Shown here: positions 7,201 through 48,680 of the stretch, in pieces
Position numbering within the stretch: position 1 is the stretch's first letter
How the letters are laid out: each line of letters starts with the position of its first letter
IMG/VR virus record: IMGVR_UViG_3300037478_000858
Span: 1 to 52,911 of that record
DNA: 52,911 nucleotides
Direction: 5' to 3' (one strand)
Origin: a virus
Lineage: Duplodnaviria > Caudoviricetes
Program-made: the position numbers and the translations under genes
The notes under the pieces: generated by a model
What the model was told of the DNA's origin: nothing
Database searches by the model: none
What the model saw: only the letters and a program-made list of their open reading frames with translations

Positions 7201-7204
<4 letters not shown>

Positions 7205-7890
7205 GGTCGCCCCTCTTGCTCACGCGCCCTTCGAGCAGCCAGCACCGCCTGCTCATCGTCCGAAGACAGAAGCAGGGCGACTGCCTCTCGGGCACAGCTG
7301 TCTGGGTCTCTCCAGATCTCCGACCCGGTGAATCGAACTGTCGAGATGCCAGCAGCGAGAATATGTCGGTCACGCTGTTTGTCGTGACGGGCTTGCTCTT
7401 TCGTCTTCTCGTGGAAGTCGTGCCCGTCGCACTCGATAGCGAGGACGTTCGGCTGCGGAACGCCGCCGCGACAGACGAGCAAGTCGACACTGTATTTGCC
7501 GATTCGGGCCTGCGGGAAGATGTCGATCGTTCCGTTGCCTGGGAATTCAGAGTCCCAGAACGGAACCATGTCCTCGTAGGTGCCGTAGTCGCCGTCGCCG
7601 CCGACTGCGAACGCACCTCCCCACTCCAGCATCCGATAGCCCCTGCGGGTGATCCACCGGAGGGTCTCTCCGAATATGGCTGGACGGCTGAACAAGTGCG
7701 ACGAGACGCCAATCCCAAGGTTGCGATCGGCAGCCAGCGCTATGAGAGATCGGTGGAGGGCGGCCTCTATGGGCGATCCCGAGACGTGGCCGATCCGCCA
7801 GAGACAAAAGTTCGCCGTCTCAGCTGCCGCCCTCATCTTCATCTCGACCAGCCGCCCTTCGACGTCTTTCCAGAGGGGGCCGTCGCTCAT
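7201..7890 (-). CDS. DUF559/Vsr-like endonuclease
   Basis: PQARIGKYSVDLL...LAIECDGHDFHEKTKEQARHDKQRDR...GISTVRFTGSEI. Confidence 0.85.
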
Positions 7891-45965: not shown

Positions 45966-48680
45966 CTACGGCCTACCTCGCTTGGCATCGACCAGCGCTT
46001 GCAGCAGCTCCGCCTCGCGGCGACTGACCCGGGCGCCGCCTATCCCTCGAGCAGCGCCGGGTTCGTCGAGCACCGGGTTCCCGGTCGGCGGGAAGCCGCG
46101 AATCCACTCCGCCGCGGCCTCGAATTCATCATCGATCGCCAGCCCCAGCTGCTTGTAGGCCAAGGCGCGCTCACGAACGATGCGCCAGGCCTCAGCGCCC
46201 TCGACCTCGTAGAGCGCTTCGACCCAGCTCACTTGGGGGGAGAAAAACTCGGCGTAGGCGATATGGCTATCAAGCCAGTCGCCCGGAACCCCCATCCGCC
46301 GCATCAGCTGGTGGCTCGTGGCCTCCGTGGCCAGCTCCTCAGTGATCAGTCCGAGCCCTTCGAAGCTTCGCCACTTCCCCGGGCCGAACGAGTGCGTCGT
46401 CTCGTGCACGAACGTCGAGAACCCCTGCAGGTTGCGGCGCACGTCGGCCATCCGGCCCGCTCGGGCCGCCGCGGCGAACGCCCGCAGCTCCTCGGCCTGC
46501 CCCTGCTCCAGGGTCATGACACCGTCAGGTGTGAGCCGGCCCAGTACGCCCAGCCCGGCGTACCCCACCTCGACTTTCTTGATCGGCTTCGAGGGCTCGC
46601 CGAGCTCGAGCGCCATGTTGCCCCGCAGCTCGTTGACGGCCGCGTGGAAGTCGCCCTGCTCGAGCGGCGCGAGCACCCGCTCGAGGCGCTCCTGCTCGCT
46701 CAGCTCTCGGCGCGCAGCGCGGGCGCGCTCCCTGGCGGGCTCGACGGCTCGCTCTCGCGCGTCGATCTCCTCGGGTGTCAGGTACGGGTCGCCCGGGATA
46801 TGCCGACCACGTGCCCGCCGTGCCGCCTCCTCGGCGGCTCGCAGCTCCTCCTCGGCCTGGTCGAGTCTCGCGTTCGCGTCGAGAGCGGGTTCCGGCTCGG
46901 CCGGCGACTTGGGCTCCTCGTCCCACTCGGGCCGCCAGGGTGTGAGGGCGCAACGGCAGTTGTGCACGATGAAACCGTTGGCGATATACGACTCGTCCTC
47001 GTCGACCTGAAAGTTGTAGACGGGGCCGACGAATGGCTTGCGCCCAACGCGCACCGACAGCAACCTATACCGGTGGCCCGCCACGACAGCCCCCATGGAA
47101 CGCCGCGCATCTCGGAGGACAATCGACGCAGATACGCCAGCATGAGCGCTGCCGAGCGCAAGGCTCAGGCCGCGCCAGCGCACGACGCGGTGCGCGGAAC
47201 GAAGAAGCCGCCAGAGGTTCGCCGCCGCATGGTGGCCGCGCAGGCCGGCCGCGCGAAGTCGCACCACGAGACCGCCGTGGCGATCGCCCTGCGACGCCTC
47301 GGGGTTGAGTTCGCTATCGGCTACCAGGTGGACGTGTTCCTTGTAGACCTCGCCATCGCCTCCGATCGCGTCGCTGTCGAGATCGACGGGGGTCAGTGGC
47401 ACACCACGCCGAGGAAGTCGGCTCAGGATCGACGCAAGGAAGCTGCGCTCCTTGCGCGAGGCTGGCGCATCGTCCGTTTCCAGAACAACGCGCTCAAGTA
47501 CCCAGACCTCTGCGCCGCGCGGATCCAGCTCCTCTGCGGCGATCCAGCCGCGTGGGGTGGCGATCGGGTGATTCGGTGTGGCGCGCAGGACGTCGCCCCC
47601 CCGATGAAGCGTGACCAGGTGACCGGTCGCTACCTGCCGCGAGAGAGCTAGAACGCGGCGCCACCGGCCGCGGTGGGTGAGGACGAGATCGCCGACGGCG
47701 ATCGTCTCGATCGGCCGGTCGCCGGATGGGGTTCGCACGAGCGTCCCGGCCGGAAAGCAGTTGGGGTGTCGGGGCGGATGCGGGATGTCGCGGCCCTGGC
47801 GGTCGCGCACGAACACGCCATCGAGCTCGACCACCTTGCCGTCGAGCTCGGCGCACAGCTCGCACAGCCGGCGGTCGGCCGCCGCGTCCCACCGCTTGCT
47901 GTAGCCCGGGTCCTGCCGGTCGGCCTCCTCGAGCGCTGTCTGGTGCTGGACGTTGTACGCGTGCAGCCCTTCGGTGCGGACGATGCGCTCGGCCCAATGG
48001 TTGTACCGGCGAAACAGCCCCTCCGAGATGTTCTCGGCGATCGCTCCGGGCTCGCCAATGACGCCGCGCAGCGACACCAGCCCGCGCGGTCCACCGTGTT
48101 TGACCAGCCGTCGCGTGAGCTCCTCGAAGGTCTCGCCGCGCACCACGCCGGTGGCGAGCATCCGGCGGATGTCGGTGGACATGGCCTTGCCGTAGCGCGC
48201 GGCCGAGGCGCGGTAGCGCGGGATGAGCTGCGTCGAGCCCTCGGCGAGGATGGCCGCCTCGGCGAGTTGGAGCGGTCGCACGCTGTGACCGAACACCGCG
48301 GCGAACACCGCGACCTCCTCCTCGAGGTGGGCGATCGCCATCGCTCCGGCCGCGCGGCCCTGAGCGCGAAGCGTGCCCTCGACCTCGATCGGCAACCGCT
48401 TCTCGACGACCTCGAGGGTGTGCTCGAGCTGCAGCAGCGCCTGCCGGTAGCGCTGGGCGGTGAAGCGGAGCTCGCCGTCCGGGATCTGGGTGAGCCATCG
48501 CTCGAGGTCCTGGCGGAGCTCGGCGCGGGCGTCGGCGAGCGCGGGCGCCAGGGCGCGGACGTAGCGGTCGGGCAGGCGCGCGGCCTGCTCAGCGATCACC
48601 CCCATCACCTGGGCGACCTGGCGACGCTGTGGCTTGCGCGACGGGCGGCGGGCGCCGATGCCGGGCGGGGCGACCGACAC
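45966..48680 (-). CDS. MuF/SPP1 gp7-like minor head protein with intein and C-terminal HExxH domain
   Basis: AERIVRTE...KRWDA...RLCELCAELDG...HPN[intein]CRC; FVHETTH...TEELATE in the C-terminal extension. Confidence 0.9.
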   Translation of the reverse strand: MSVAPPGIGARRPSRKPQRRQVAQVMGVIAEQAARLPDRYVRALAPALADARAELRQDLERWLTQIPDGELRFTAQRYRQALLQLEHTLEVVEKRLPIEVEGTLRAQGRAAGAMAIAHLEEEVAVFAAVFGHSVRPLQLAEAAILAEGSTQLIPRYRASAARYGKAMSTDIRRMLATGVVRGETFEELTRRLVKHGGPRGLVSLRGVIGEPGAIAENISEGLFRRYNHWAERIVRTEGLHAYNVQHQTALEEADRQDPGYSKRWDAAADRRLCELCAELDGKVVELDGVFVRDRQGRDIPHPPRHPNCFPAGTLVRTPSGDRPIETIAVGDLVLTHRGRWRRVLALSRQVATGHLVTLHRGGDVLRATPNHPIATPRGWIAAEELDPRGAEVWVLERVVLETDDAPASRKERSFLASILSRLPRRGVPLTPVDLDSDAIGGDGEVYKEHVHLVADSELNPEASQGDRHGGLVVRLRAAGLRGHHAAANLWRLLRSAHRVVRWRGLSLALGSAHAGVSASIVLRDARRSMGAVVAGHRYRLLSVRVGRKPFVGPVYNFQVDEDESYIANGFIVHNCRCALTPWRPEWDEEPKSPAEPEPALDANARLDQAEEELRAAEEAARRARGRHIPGDPYLTPEEIDARERAVEPARERARAARRELSEQERLERVLAPLEQGDFHAAVNELRGNMALELGEPSKPIKKVEVGYAGLGVLGRLTPDGVMTLEQGQAEELRAFAAAARAGRMADVRRNLQGFSTFVHETTHSFGPGKWRSFEGLGLITEELATEATSHQLMRRMGVPGDWLDSHIAYAEFFSPQVSWVEALYEVEGAEAWRIVRERALAYKQLGLAIDDEFEAAAEWIRGFPPTGNPVLDEPGAARGIGGARVSRREAELLQALVDAKRGRP
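46959..47759 (-). mobile_element. Intein (267 aa) inserted in the MuF HPN/CRC motif
   Basis: Starts CFPAGTLV; block B LRATPNHP; ends VYNFQVDEDESYIANGFIVHN followed by Cys+1. Confidence 0.95.
47142..47651 (+). CDS. DUF559/Vsr-like endonuclease encoded antisense within the intein (alternative start GTG 47073)
   Basis: YQVDVFLVDLAI...VAVEIDGGQWH...QDRRKEAALLARGWRIVRF; basic N-terminal RGTKKPPEVRRRM segment. Confidence 0.85.
   Translation: MSAAERKAQAAPAHDAVRGTKKPPEVRRRMVAAQAGRAKSHHETAVAIALRRLGVEFAIGYQVDVFLVDLAIASDRVAVEIDGGQWHTTPRKSAQDRRKEAALLARGWRIVRFQNNALKYPDLCAARIQLLCGDPAAWGGDRVIRCGAQDVAPPMKRDQVTGRYLPRES

What the first reader, a model, noticed from the sequence alone, without database searches (positions are those of the whole stretch)
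46959..47759. Intein whose putative homing endonuclease is encoded on the opposite strand
Seen: the MuF intein has intact splicing motifs (C1 CFPAGT, TPNHP, VYNFQV...VHN/C). Its interior, where a LAGLIDADG or HNH domain normally sits, resembles no domain I recognise. The reverse strand of that interior (47142..47651, possibly from GTG 47073) encodes a DUF559/Vsr-like nuclease with the family motifs intact (Q...VDLAI...VEIDGGQWH...D...L...GWRIVRF) and a basic N-terminal segment; its tail overlaps intein block B. Both frames share codon boundaries, the antisense register that tends to stay open in GC-rich genes because TTA/CTA/TCA codons are rare. Established: Vsr-like (EDxHD) homing endonucleases are known from phage introns and as free-standing genes between split-intein halves. 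Inference: an inverted endonuclease gene hides inside a contiguous intein, its antisense translation is spliced out as filler, and the nuclease could be expressed separately from the late host gene. I know of no description of this dual-strand architecture but could not search the literature. No clear antisense promoter is visible and the nuclease N-terminus may be truncated.
Basis: partly seen in the sequence, partly recalled or inferred. Interest (0 to 1): 0.92.

Follow-up and report, generated by a model that had tools for sequence, protein, structure and literature searches.

The report
Intein carrying an antisense homing endonuclease gene
A phage head-assembly gene carries a self-splicing protein insert (an intein) whose middle encodes a DNA-cutting enzyme on the opposite strand; this layout is real and common in phages but was described in a 2025 preprint, and this copy looks partly decayed.

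Summary
The minus-strand ORF 45966..48680 is a MuF/SPP1-gp7 minor capsid protein with a contiguous class-1 intein (46959..47759). The plus strand of the intein interior, in the codon-aligned register, encodes a Vsr/DUF559 (EDxHD-type) nuclease: Pfam hits above gathering score, AlphaFold pLDDT 88, best PDB match I-Bth0305I. The same DNA read in the intein frame does not fold (pLDDT 33-54).

It is neither chance nor an assembly inversion. The same antisense arrangement occurs in 6 of 6 inspected Salmonella, Pantoea and Vibrio phage records and in 80 of 80 IMG/VR loci kept (GC 0.43-0.72). In three independent lineages the substitution pattern flips to the nuclease frame inside the interior.

The novelty claim fails. 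Antisense VSR-like endonucleases in full inteins of actinophage minor capsid genes are described in bioRxiv 10.1101/2025.01.02.630785, which cites antisense LAGLIDADG cases back to 1998.

The window copy has lost the N-terminal HTH domain and the start codon through three in-frame deletions, so it is probably a decaying endonuclease.

Beyond that preprint: many relatives encode a sigma-70-like promoter, Shine-Dalgarno and ATG antisense to splicing blocks F/G, and homologous sense-oriented versions occupy the same MuF site.

The parts
45966..48680 (-). MuF / SPP1 gp7-like minor capsid (head morphogenesis) gene, 904 aa, including the intein
   Evidence: ORF list; Pfam Phage_Mu_F 6.5e-13; 60 of 65 N-extein relatives carry Phage_Mu_F or no family, with no Hint family on record
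47760..48680 (-). N-extein, ending ...PPRHPN
   Evidence: Translation; the intein-less allele P0097 reads HPNCRCALTPW across the site
46959..47759 (-). Contiguous class-1 intein, 267 aa (Cys1 ... His-Asn, followed by Cys+1)
   Evidence: Hint_2 and TIGR01443 hits; junctions
47490..47759 (-). N-terminal Hint subdomain (blocks A and B, TPNHP); intein residues 1-90
   Evidence: AlphaFold pLDDT 90-98 per 10-residue block
47082..47480 (-). Intein interior read in the intein frame: filler with no predicted fold (intein residues 94-226)
   Evidence: pLDDT 33-54 apart from one block at 69; no Pfam family on this stretch
46959..47072 (-). C-terminal Hint subdomain (blocks F and G, VYNFQV...VHN)
   Evidence: pLDDT 90-97; TIGR01443 hit
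45966..46958 (-). C-extein, starting CRCALTPW
   Evidence: Translation
47073..47651 (+). Antisense Vsr/DUF559 (EDxHD-like) endonuclease ORF, as read from in-frame GTG 47073 to TAG. The start is uncertain; homology to relatives begins near 47106; ATG 47142 corresponds to an internal conserved Met
   Evidence: Pfam hits; alignments; AlphaFold pLDDT 88.4, pTM 0.75; Foldseek top hit 3R3P, then 1VSR
47268..47489 (+). Nuclease core (VDLAI ... VAVEIDGGQWH ... GWRIVRF)
   Evidence: Pfam MTES_1575 aa 80-153 of P0002. Family-invariant E66, D92, G106, G107 and near-invariant E103, W109, H110 are present. D92 and H110 align with the positions mutated in 3R3P (D196A, H213A)
47490..47648 (+). Nuclease C-terminal tail (…TGRY…), dual-coded with Hint blocks A and B on the other strand
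   Evidence: Alignments; both frames conserved in this zone in relatives
47040..47100 (+). Zone where three in-frame deletions (30, 45 and 36 nt relative to L009) removed the HTH DNA-binding domain and the L009-type ATG
   Evidence: DNA alignment; protein alignment

Best explanation
The MuF minor-capsid gene of this roughly 53-kb phage genome carries a contiguous class-1 intein at the conserved HPN|CRC site.

A homing endonuclease gene (HEG) of the Vsr/DUF559/EDxHD superfamily lies inside the intein on the opposite strand, in the codon-aligned antisense register. The same DNA therefore specifies two products. In the MuF frame it is an unstructured linker between the two Hint halves, which is spliced out with the intein. 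In the other frame it is a folded nuclease whose C-terminal tail is dual-coded with Hint blocks A and B.

The element belongs to a large family of MuF inteins with antisense HEGs, found in Salmonella, Pantoea, Vibrio and Gordonia phages and in many uncultured viruses. In that family the interior evolves under purifying selection in the HEG frame. The intein is sporadic among close intein-less alleles. Many members encode a sigma-70-like promoter, SD and ATG antisense to splicing blocks F and G.

Inferred mechanism: the HEG is transcribed against the late operon, cuts intein-less muF alleles near the HPN|CRC codons, and repair copies in the intein together with the HEG. Splicing restores MuF.

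The window copy is a derived member. Three in-frame deletions removed the N-terminal HTH domain and the start codon, and its Hint ends lack the embedded expression signals. It is most likely (about 60%) a decaying HEG that no longer homes, inside an intein that still splices. The nuclease core and its catalytic residues are intact.
For: Shown for the window:
- Pfam and NCBIfam hits on both strands.
- The GC3 signal moves to the plus frame at aa 380-500.
- AlphaFold: the nuclease frame gives pLDDT 88.4 with 137 of 192 residues at 90 or above, and its best PDB matches are I-Bth0305I 3R3P (TM 0.75 on the target) and Vsr 1VSR.
- AlphaFold: the intein frame gives Hint ends above 90 and an interior of 33-54.
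- The family profile hits 3HRL at 8.3e-10 and 3R3P at 2.2e-5.

Shown for relatives:
- tblastn found 20 phage records. In 6 of 6 inspected, the match lies opposite the annotated MuF gene and the ORF is unannotated.
- In IMG/VR, 279 stretches encode relatives and the best 80 were kept. All 80 have a spanning ORF on the other strand in the same register, at GC 0.43-0.72.
- Of 64 non-redundant spanning ORFs, 49 hit Intein_splicing and 40 hit Phage_Mu_F.

Selection:
- STP-1 versus AH01: extein differences at intein-strand codon positions 1/2/3 are 46/36/181, but 63/16/26 in the interior. Amino-acid identity is 0.81 in the HEG frame and 0.48 in the intein frame.
- The same flip occurs in L012/L025 and L063/L078.
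- W versus L009, aligned by the HEG frame: 43/43/70 at HEG positions 1/2/3, with identity 0.51 against 0.29.

Mobility:
- 76 of 652 phage records with MuF relatives cover at least 80% of the intein-bearing query. Extein relatives at 90-94% identity lack the intein.
- 60 of 65 relatives of the window's N-extein have no Hint family on record. P0097 has the uninterrupted site.

Expression signals:
- 41 of 54 non-redundant loci have ATG, GTG or TTG antisense to the residue before VYN.
- 24 of those 41 have a strong promoter-like site at -51 or -32/-35, against a background of 15 in 106,319 positions.
- The Ile-Ile pair of block G is coded ATT-ATA in 13 of 18 loci, against 5.6% expected.

Decay of the window copy.
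Against: - No transcription, translation, cleavage or splicing data exist for this or any relative.
- In the window, openness of the antisense frame carries no weight: 1 stop in 905 codons.
- The W versus L009 comparison is near saturation. Aligned by the intein frame, it shows no asymmetry (64/49/62). The asymmetry comes from an alignment guided by the HEG frame.
- The window has no promoter-like site, no SD at a usable distance from GTG 47073 or ATG 47142 (read), and no HTH domain.
- The loci in the promoter and codon counts are related to each other, so the p-values overstate independence. Block G is conserved as protein anyway.
- The stop-avoidance count and the intein HMM hits are partly circular, because loci were selected by tblastn to the HEG.
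- The Salmonella-phage HEG hits no Pfam family at E<=0.01. Affeca's core lacks the GGxWH motif. Activity may therefore be lost in several members.
Confidence: 0.82

Rival explanations
1. The antisense nuclease in the window is a dead relic. After the HTH domain and start codon were deleted, it stays open only because the genome is GC-rich and the MuF frame must remain open. The intein is on its way to becoming a mini-intein. This is a sub-case of the best explanation and concerns only the present state of this copy.
For: Three in-frame deletions totalling 111 nt removed the HTH domain and the ATG present in L009. No promoter-like site was found. Antisense stops are nearly absent across the whole gene, 1 in 905 codons. 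W deviates from near-invariant family residues at 3 places: V54, F89-L90 and K122 (and my reading of the sequence).
Against: The nuclease core keeps all family-invariant and putative catalytic residues and is predicted to fold with pLDDT 88. Its Pfam score is the highest among the six HEG-family copies scanned: the window, L009, Affeca and STP-1.
Confidence: 0.6
2. Assembly inversion. The true intein carries the DUF559 domain in frame, as P0029 and P0046 do, and the interior was flipped by misassembly of the metagenomic contig.
For: Homologous sense-oriented, in-frame versions exist at the same MuF site. The codon-aligned register would keep a flipped block in frame. One weak inverted repeat (16 nt, 81% complementary) flanks the region.
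Against: The same antisense layout is seen in 80 of 80 independent IMG/VR loci and in 6 of 6 inspected isolate phage genomes. The nuclease ORF runs on into the N-terminal Hint part, which is in the correct orientation for MuF, so no simple flip separates the two. The repeat arms lie outside the nuclease and would also flip Hint block B.
Confidence: 0.02
3. Chance resemblance. A GC-rich antisense frame happens to mimic a DUF559 motif.
For: Long open antisense frames are expected at 70% GC.
Against: Two Pfam families score above gathering threshold. There are 279 relatives in IMG/VR. The fold is confident and matches a solved homing endonuclease. Selection acts in that frame in relatives.
Confidence: 0.01
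4. The antisense product is not a homing enzyme. It has been domesticated by the phage, for example as a nuclease against competing phages or host DNA, and is kept for that reason.
For: The phage also carries a free-standing DUF559/MTES_1575 gene at 7201..7890. NCBIfam shows weak similarity to nuclease domains of anti-phage proteins: ProA 1.4e-7, far below its cut-off. The window copy lacks the targeting HTH domain.
Against: The intein is sporadic among near-identical intein-less alleles, as expected for homing. The bipartite HTH-plus-Vsr layout of relatives matches I-Bth0305I (passages read).
Confidence: 0.07

Closest known systems
Anti-sense VSR-like HEN inteins of actinobacteriophages (Gosselin, Arsenault and Gogarten, bioRxiv 10.1101/2025.01.02.630785; abstract, sections 8 and 15 and passages read)
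   Same: A full, contiguous intein with a Vsr-like endonuclease ORF on the antisense strand. The intein-frame interior has no recognisable structure. Minor capsid exteins are among the hosts. I confirmed one example myself: Gordonia phage Affeca gp15 has a 280-aa antisense ORF of this HEG family, with HTH_58 at 7.6e-12 and a weak MTES_1575 hit.
   Different: The window is an uncultured-virus record with an undetermined host. Its HEG has lost the HTH domain and start codon. The preprint text I searched contains no occurrence of 'promoter'. The parts I read (abstract, sections 8 and 15, passages from the term searches) give no per-strand substitution analysis and name no enterobacterial or Vibrio phages, but I did not read the whole text.
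I-Bth0305I and the EDxHD homing endonuclease family (Taylor et al. 2011, PMC3239194; passages read)
   Same: Vsr-like catalytic fold: best Foldseek hit 3R3P and profile hit at 2.2e-5. Relatives have the same bipartite layout, with an N-terminal HTH/NUMOD-like DNA-binding region and a C-terminal nuclease. The window has Asp at the position where that paper notes an extra acidic residue in place of Vsr Phe62 (EIDGG); most antisense family members have Phe there.
   Different: I-Bth0305I is encoded in a group I intron on the sense strand. Here the gene is antisense inside an intein, and in the window it lacks the DNA-binding region.
Fractured genes: split inteins with a free-standing Vsr-like HEG between the halves (Dassa et al. 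2009, PMC2677866; passages read)
   Same: An intein associated with a separately translated Vsr-like endonuclease gene lying between the splicing halves.
   Different: There the intein and host gene are split into two ORFs. Here a single ORF reads through the HEG in antisense, so the intein is contiguous.
Anti-sense LAGLIDADG inteins (cited in the preprint to Gorbalenya 1998 and Gogarten 2002, which I did not read), including Gordonia phage Barsten gp15
   Same: Antisense HEG in a contiguous intein. Barsten's MuF intein has Hint ends like the window's (LYNFAVDEDESYIAAGIAVHN/C) and a 206-aa antisense ORF.
   Different: A different nuclease family. The LAGLIDADG assignment for Barsten rests on my recognising a motif; Pfam gave no hit at E<=0.01.
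Sense, in-frame DUF559/Vsr HEN inteins at the same MuF site (P0029, P0034, P0042, P0044, P0046, P0050, and the first intein of P0053)
   Same: Same insertion site and a homologous nuclease: hhalign of the family profile against P0029 gives probability 97%, E 8.7e-11, over 120 columns. The window's Hint ends are 42% (N) and 77% (C, 22 aa) identical to those of P0029.
   Different: The endonuclease is translated as part of the intein. They also carry a Cys-rich segment and have no antisense ORF requirement.

Membership tests
Class-1 intein (Hint domain) | N-terminal Cys/Ser1, block B TxxH, C-terminal His-Asn followed by Cys/Ser/Thr +1 | tested here: met
   CFPAGT, TPNHP and VHN/C in the translation; Hint_2 at 6.9e-10; TIGR01443 at 3.1e-8
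Class-1 intein (Hint domain) | In-frame insertion at a conserved extein site, with intein-less alleles in relatives | tested here: met
   P0097 reads HPNCRCALTPW uninterrupted; 60 of 65 N-extein relatives have no Hint family on record
Class-1 intein (Hint domain) | Hint fold formed by the N- and C-terminal parts | tested here: met
   AlphaFold beta-rich ends with pLDDT 90-98. No fold search was run on this model
Class-1 intein (Hint domain) | Protein splicing activity | not testable with these tools
   Needs expression and a gel or mass-spectrometry assay
Vsr / DUF559 / EDxHD endonuclease superfamily | Profile match above the curated threshold | tested here: met
   MTES_1575 45.1 bits (cut-off 38.2) and DUF559 38.5 bits (cut-off 20.6). 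TIGR00632 vsr scored only 31.8 against a cut-off of 97.85, so it is not a Vsr orthologue
Vsr / DUF559 / EDxHD endonuclease superfamily | Vsr-like fold | tested here: met
   Foldseek: 3R3P E 5.8e-5, TM 0.75 on the target; 1VSR TM 0.61
Vsr / DUF559 / EDxHD endonuclease superfamily | Catalytic Asp, His and acidic residues conserved | tested here: met
   E66, D92, E103 and H110 are present. D92 and H110 align with the D196 and H213 positions of I-Bth0305I
EDxHD homing endonucleases (I-Bth0305I type) | N-terminal NUMOD/HTH DNA-binding region | tested here: not met
   Absent from the window copy. Present in L009, the Jersey-like phages, the Vibrio phage and Affeca
EDxHD homing endonucleases (I-Bth0305I type) | Site-specific cleavage of the element-free allele | not testable with these tools
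   Needs purified protein and intein-less muF DNA
Anti-sense VSR-like HEN intein (2025 preprint) | HEN ORF on the strand opposite a contiguous intein, with an interior unstructured in the intein frame | tested here: met
Anti-sense VSR-like HEN intein (2025 preprint) | Complete HEN ORF with its own start | tested here: inconclusive
   Only GTG 47073 or the internal ATG 47142 are available, with no SD. The canonical start seen in 41 of 54 relatives is absent
Fractured gene / split intein with free-standing HEG | Host gene and intein broken into two ORFs | tested here: not met
   A single 904-aa ORF spans the intein

The most novel reading that the evidence does not exclude
The intein and its antisense endonuclease gene form one integrated, co-evolved bidirectional unit, not a chance nesting. 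In much of the family, the conserved C-terminal splicing blocks F and G and the +1 extein codons also serve, on the other strand, as the endonuclease's own sigma-70 promoter (TTGACA-N17/18-TGTATAAT or TGnTATAAT), Shine-Dalgarno sequence (GGAGG/CGAGG from the N-L-E/Q codons) and start codon (ATG opposite the block-F His codon). The endonuclease tail is dual-coded with blocks A and B.

Synonymous codon choice, and perhaps even the non-canonical penultimate Ser/Lys/Gln of some members, would then be shaped by the antisense signals.

The unit is widespread far beyond actinophages: Jersey-like Salmonella phages, Pantoea and Vibrio phages, and hundreds of uncultured viruses. Homologous nucleases occur in both orientations at the same MuF site, which would make orientation switching directly traceable.
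Probability: 0.55. Interest if true: 0.75.

Novelty: new member of a known kind. Interest (0 to 1): 0.55.

Why it matters
For this window, the result is a correct annotation. The gene is a MuF gene with an intein, and it holds an unannotated antisense nuclease gene that ordinary gene callers miss. None of the 6 inspected GenBank records annotates it.

More broadly, the family is a natural case of long antisense dual coding (250-320 codons) under selection on both strands. Regulatory signals appear to be written into protein-splicing motifs.

This gives testable predictions about how an intein-borne endonuclease can be expressed independently of a late structural gene. It also bears on how free-standing endonucleases and mini-inteins merge, and on how sense and antisense forms interconvert.

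It also suggests that 'unknown interior' inteins should routinely be scanned in six frames.

Tried and rejected
- DNA-level search of the intein against GenBank phages found only a 69-nt match, to Gordonia phage Barsten. That match led to a different, LAGLIDADG-type antisense ORF.
- A single-protein scan of IMG/VR found nothing. The alignment-based scan worked.
I therefore wrote my own positional scan.
- The inverted-repeat search gave one weak pair, which I judge to be chance.
- The stop-avoidance count found 7 stops in 9,183 codons inside against 434 in 29,067 outside. Five of the 7 are the HEGs' own terminal stops, which I had included for the five GenBank loci. The other two are near-terminal stops in L010 and L051. 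I give the test little weight because tblastn-selected matches are biased against stops.
- W versus L009 aligned by the intein frame showed no positional asymmetry.
- Literature searches on 'opposite strand', 'antisense' and 'overlapping gene' and passages of PMC8966425 and PMC4853749 held nothing relevant. Searches returned the preprint. PMC11855218 (abstract only) describes an out-of-frame HNH in a non-intein insertion; it is related in spirit but not the same thing.
- I did not determine the host of the window virus. I did not run the representative-protein search, the atlas search or the complex prediction. I did not inspect the 199 lower-ranked IMG/VR matches.

Full report
WHAT IS THERE

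The window is a whole IMG/VR virus record of 52,911 bases, with CheckV completeness 92. On the minus strand, ORF 45966..48680 (904 aa) is a MuF/SPP1-gp7 minor capsid protein. It hits Pfam Phage_Mu_F at 6.5e-13 over aa 170-308.

The ORF is interrupted in frame by an intein of 267 aa, at aa 308-574, which is 46959..47759. The motifs HPN/CFPAGT, TPNHP and VYNFQV...VHN/C are present. The intein hits Hint_2 at 6.9e-10 and TIGR01443 at 3.1e-8.

The plus strand of the interior shares codon boundaries with the intein frame. It encodes a protein that hits Pfam MTES_1575 (45.1 bits, cut-off 38.2) and DUF559 (38.5 bits, cut-off 20.6).

At 70% GC the antisense register has only 1 stop in 905 codons, so openness alone proves nothing here. 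The elevated third-position GC does move from the minus to the plus frame at aa 380-500.

TWO READINGS OF ONE DNA

I folded each frame with an alignment of relatives.

- Plus-frame product (192 aa from GTG 47073): mean pLDDT 88.4, pTM 0.75. Its best solved-structure matches are the homing endonuclease I-Bth0305I catalytic domain (3R3P, TM 0.75 on the target) and Vsr (1VSR).
- The family profile also finds 3HRL (8.3e-10) and 3R3P (2.2e-5) by sequence.
- Intein frame: confident Hint ends (pLDDT 90-98) and an interior, residues 94-226, at 33-54 apart from one block at 69.

The interior is therefore filler in the MuF frame and a folded nuclease in the other frame.

NOT A ONE-OFF AND NOT AN ARTEFACT

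tblastn of the plus-frame protein against GenBank phages hit 20 records: Salmonella 17, Pantoea 1, Vibrio 1, Escherichia 1. I inspected 6 of them. In all 6 the match lies inside the annotated MuF/head-morphogenesis gene on the opposite strand, and no record annotates it.

These genes have 45-54% GC. Even so, they carry complete antisense ORFs of 250-322 aa in the same codon-aligned register.

A profile-seeded scan of IMG/VR found 279 stretches encoding relatives. Of the 80 kept, all 80 have a spanning ORF on the other strand in that same register, at GC 0.43-0.72. Of 64 non-redundant spanning ORFs, 49 hit Intein_splicing, 40 Phage_Mu_F, 8 Phage_portal and 3 Phage_min_cap2. Their consensus shows the same site, PPxHPN|C ... 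HN|CRC.

This rules out chance and a local assembly inversion. In addition, the nuclease ORF runs into the N-terminal Hint part, which is correctly oriented for MuF.

WHICH STRAND IS SELECTED

Between Salmonella phage STP-1 and Pantoea phage AH01, extein differences fall at intein-strand codon positions 1/2/3 as 46/36/181. In the interior they fall as 63/16/26, so the silent position is that of the nuclease frame. Amino-acid identity there is 0.81 in the nuclease frame and 0.48 in the intein frame.

The C-terminal Hint block returns to the intein pattern (0/1/8). The N-terminal Hint block is conserved in both frames (0.79 and 0.73). Five further pairs of the Salmonella, Pantoea and Vibrio phages and two metagenomic lineages, L012/L025 and L063/L078, behave alike.

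For the window against its closest relative L009 (HEG 54% identical), the signal is weak. It is 64/49/62 when aligned by the intein frame. It is 43/43/70 with identity 0.51 against 0.29 when aligned by the nuclease frame, which biases toward that frame.

MOBILITY

Of 652 phage records with relatives of the STP-1 MuF, 76 cover at least 80% of the intein-bearing query. Listed relatives at 90-94% extein identity, such as FSL SP-038 and phiEap-2, lack the intein.

Of 65 relatives of the window's N-extein, 60 have no Hint family on record. These include the closest ones, at 72-55% identity. The related intein sits in a more distant extein, P0005/L009, at 49%. P0097 shows the uninterrupted HPNCRCALTPW site.

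This sporadic pattern fits homing. It does not prove it.

EXPRESSION SIGNALS IN RELATIVES

This part goes beyond what I found in the literature.

- Start codon. In 41 of 54 non-redundant loci with a recognisable block F, the codon antisense to the residue before V-Y-N (usually His) is ATG, GTG or TTG.
- Shine-Dalgarno. The N-L-E/Q codons read GGAGG or CGAGG on the other strand, 7-8 nt upstream of that start.
- Promoter. 24 of the 41 also have a strong sigma-70-like site at a fixed distance. One form is TGnTATAAT at -51, antisense to G-I-I-T of block G. The other is TTGACA-N17/18-TGTATAAT at -32/-35, antisense to ...YIANG(V/L)LSSN. The background is 15 such sites in 106,319 positions of the same ORFs, or 0.006 expected per window.
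- Codon choice. The Ile-Ile pair of block G is coded ATT-ATA in 13 of 18 non-redundant loci, against 5.6% expected from Ile usage elsewhere in those genes.

The loci are related to one another, so these counts are not independent events. Two different positional solutions in diverse sequences argue for selection all the same. All of this is inference from sequence, and no transcript was seen.

THE WINDOW COPY IS DERIVED

L009 has an HTH domain and an ATG upstream of the conserved RxxxM..AAHxAVRG segment. The window lacks both because of three in-frame deletions of 30, 45 and 36 nt.

Its block F reads PVYNFQV, so the canonical start is absent. No promoter-like site is found. GGAGGA lies 22 nt before ATG 47142, which is too far for an SD, and that Met is an internal conserved residue.

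The nuclease core is intact: E66, D92, E103, G106, G107, W109 and H110 are all present. D92 and H110 align to the D196 and H213 positions of I-Bth0305I.

I therefore read it as an endonuclease that has probably lost targeting and regular expression (about 60%), inside an intein that must still splice because MuF is needed.

The window's Hint ends differ from most of the family. They resemble those of inteins with a sense, in-frame homologous DUF559 endonuclease at the same site: P0029 is 42% identical at the N end and 77% at the C end, and the nuclease profiles match at hhalign probability 97%. They also resemble those of Gordonia phage Barsten, whose MuF intein holds a different antisense ORF. 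One splicing scaffold thus hosts several endonuclease arrangements. P0053 even carries both a sense and an antisense-type intein in one MuF protein.

WHAT IS KNOWN

[quoted passage not shown] I read the version dated 2025-10-20: abstract, sections 8 and 15, and passages from term searches.

It names minor capsid among the host proteins. It notes that the intein-frame interior has no recognisable structure. It links the VSR-like HEN to 3R3P and the EDxHD family. It proposes invasion of inteins by free-standing HENs. It cites anti-sense LAGLIDADG inteins to Gorbalenya 1998 and Gogarten 2002, neither of which I read.

Gordonia phage Affeca gp15 carries an antisense 280-aa ORF of the window's HEG family. 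The window element is therefore a new member of a kind already described.

In the parts of the preprint I read or searched, I found no promoter (0 occurrences), no per-strand selection test, and no mention of enterobacterial or Vibrio phages.

Dassa et al. 2009 (PMC2677866, passages) and Taylor et al. 2011 (PMC3239194, passages) cover the split-intein and intron forms of the same nuclease family.

VERDICT

The novelty claim is not supported. The window copy is probably decaying.

Interest is moderate. The layout is rare in the literature and common in the data. The family-wide expression signals and the sense/antisense pairs are worth following up.

No read-level or RNA evidence could be obtained.

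Noticed in passing
window 7201..7890 (-): A second, free-standing DUF559/MTES_1575 nuclease gene in the same phage (229 aa; MTES_1575 45.8 bits, cut-off 38.2). It is only 31% identical to the intein-borne one over 71 residues.
   Followed up: partly
P0053 (978 aa, metagenomic protein): One MuF protein appears to carry two inteins. The first has a sense, in-frame DUF559 endonuclease. The second, at HPN/C...SN/CRC, has an interior showing the antisense-family signature (…LDLHGDA…). This is read from the protein only; no DNA was seen.
   Followed up: no
L089 2603..3223 (+) (Gordonia phage Barsten, inside gp15): An unannotated 206-aa antisense ORF inside the MuF intein, with a LAGLIDADG-like motif by my recognition. 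Pfam gave no hit at E<=0.01. Its Hint ends resemble the window's.
   Followed up: partly
L090 1696..2538 (-) (Gordonia phage Affeca, inside gp15): An unannotated 280-aa antisense ORF of the same HEG family, with two HTH units. Its core reads VAVEVHRTAQ instead of VAVE.(F/D)GG.WH, so the nuclease may be inactive.
   Followed up: partly
L017, L026, L028, L034, L060 and others (IMG/VR loci), intein C-terminus: Many family members end in Ser-Asn, Lys-Asn or Gln-Asn instead of His-Asn before Cys+1. In the Ser-Asn group the L-S-S-N codons form the antisense TTGACA -35 box.
   Followed up: partly
P0094 (closest intein-less extein relative, 72% identity): The homing site reads HPNDRC instead of HPNCRC: the Cys that would be +1 of the intein is replaced. 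This may be a site variant that cannot support splicing or be invaded.
   Followed up: no
L002 2342..3094 (+) (Salmonella phage STP-1) and five other GenBank records: The antisense HEG hits no Pfam family at E<=0.01 and is unannotated in all 6 inspected records, so standard pipelines miss it. One depositor labels the MuF gene 'NAD+--asparagine ADP-ribosyltransferase'.
   Followed up: yes
L010 and L051 (IMG/VR loci): These are the only 2 of 80 loci with a stop inside the tblastn match. Both stops lie near the C-terminal tail, giving a shorter tail or early decay.
   Followed up: no
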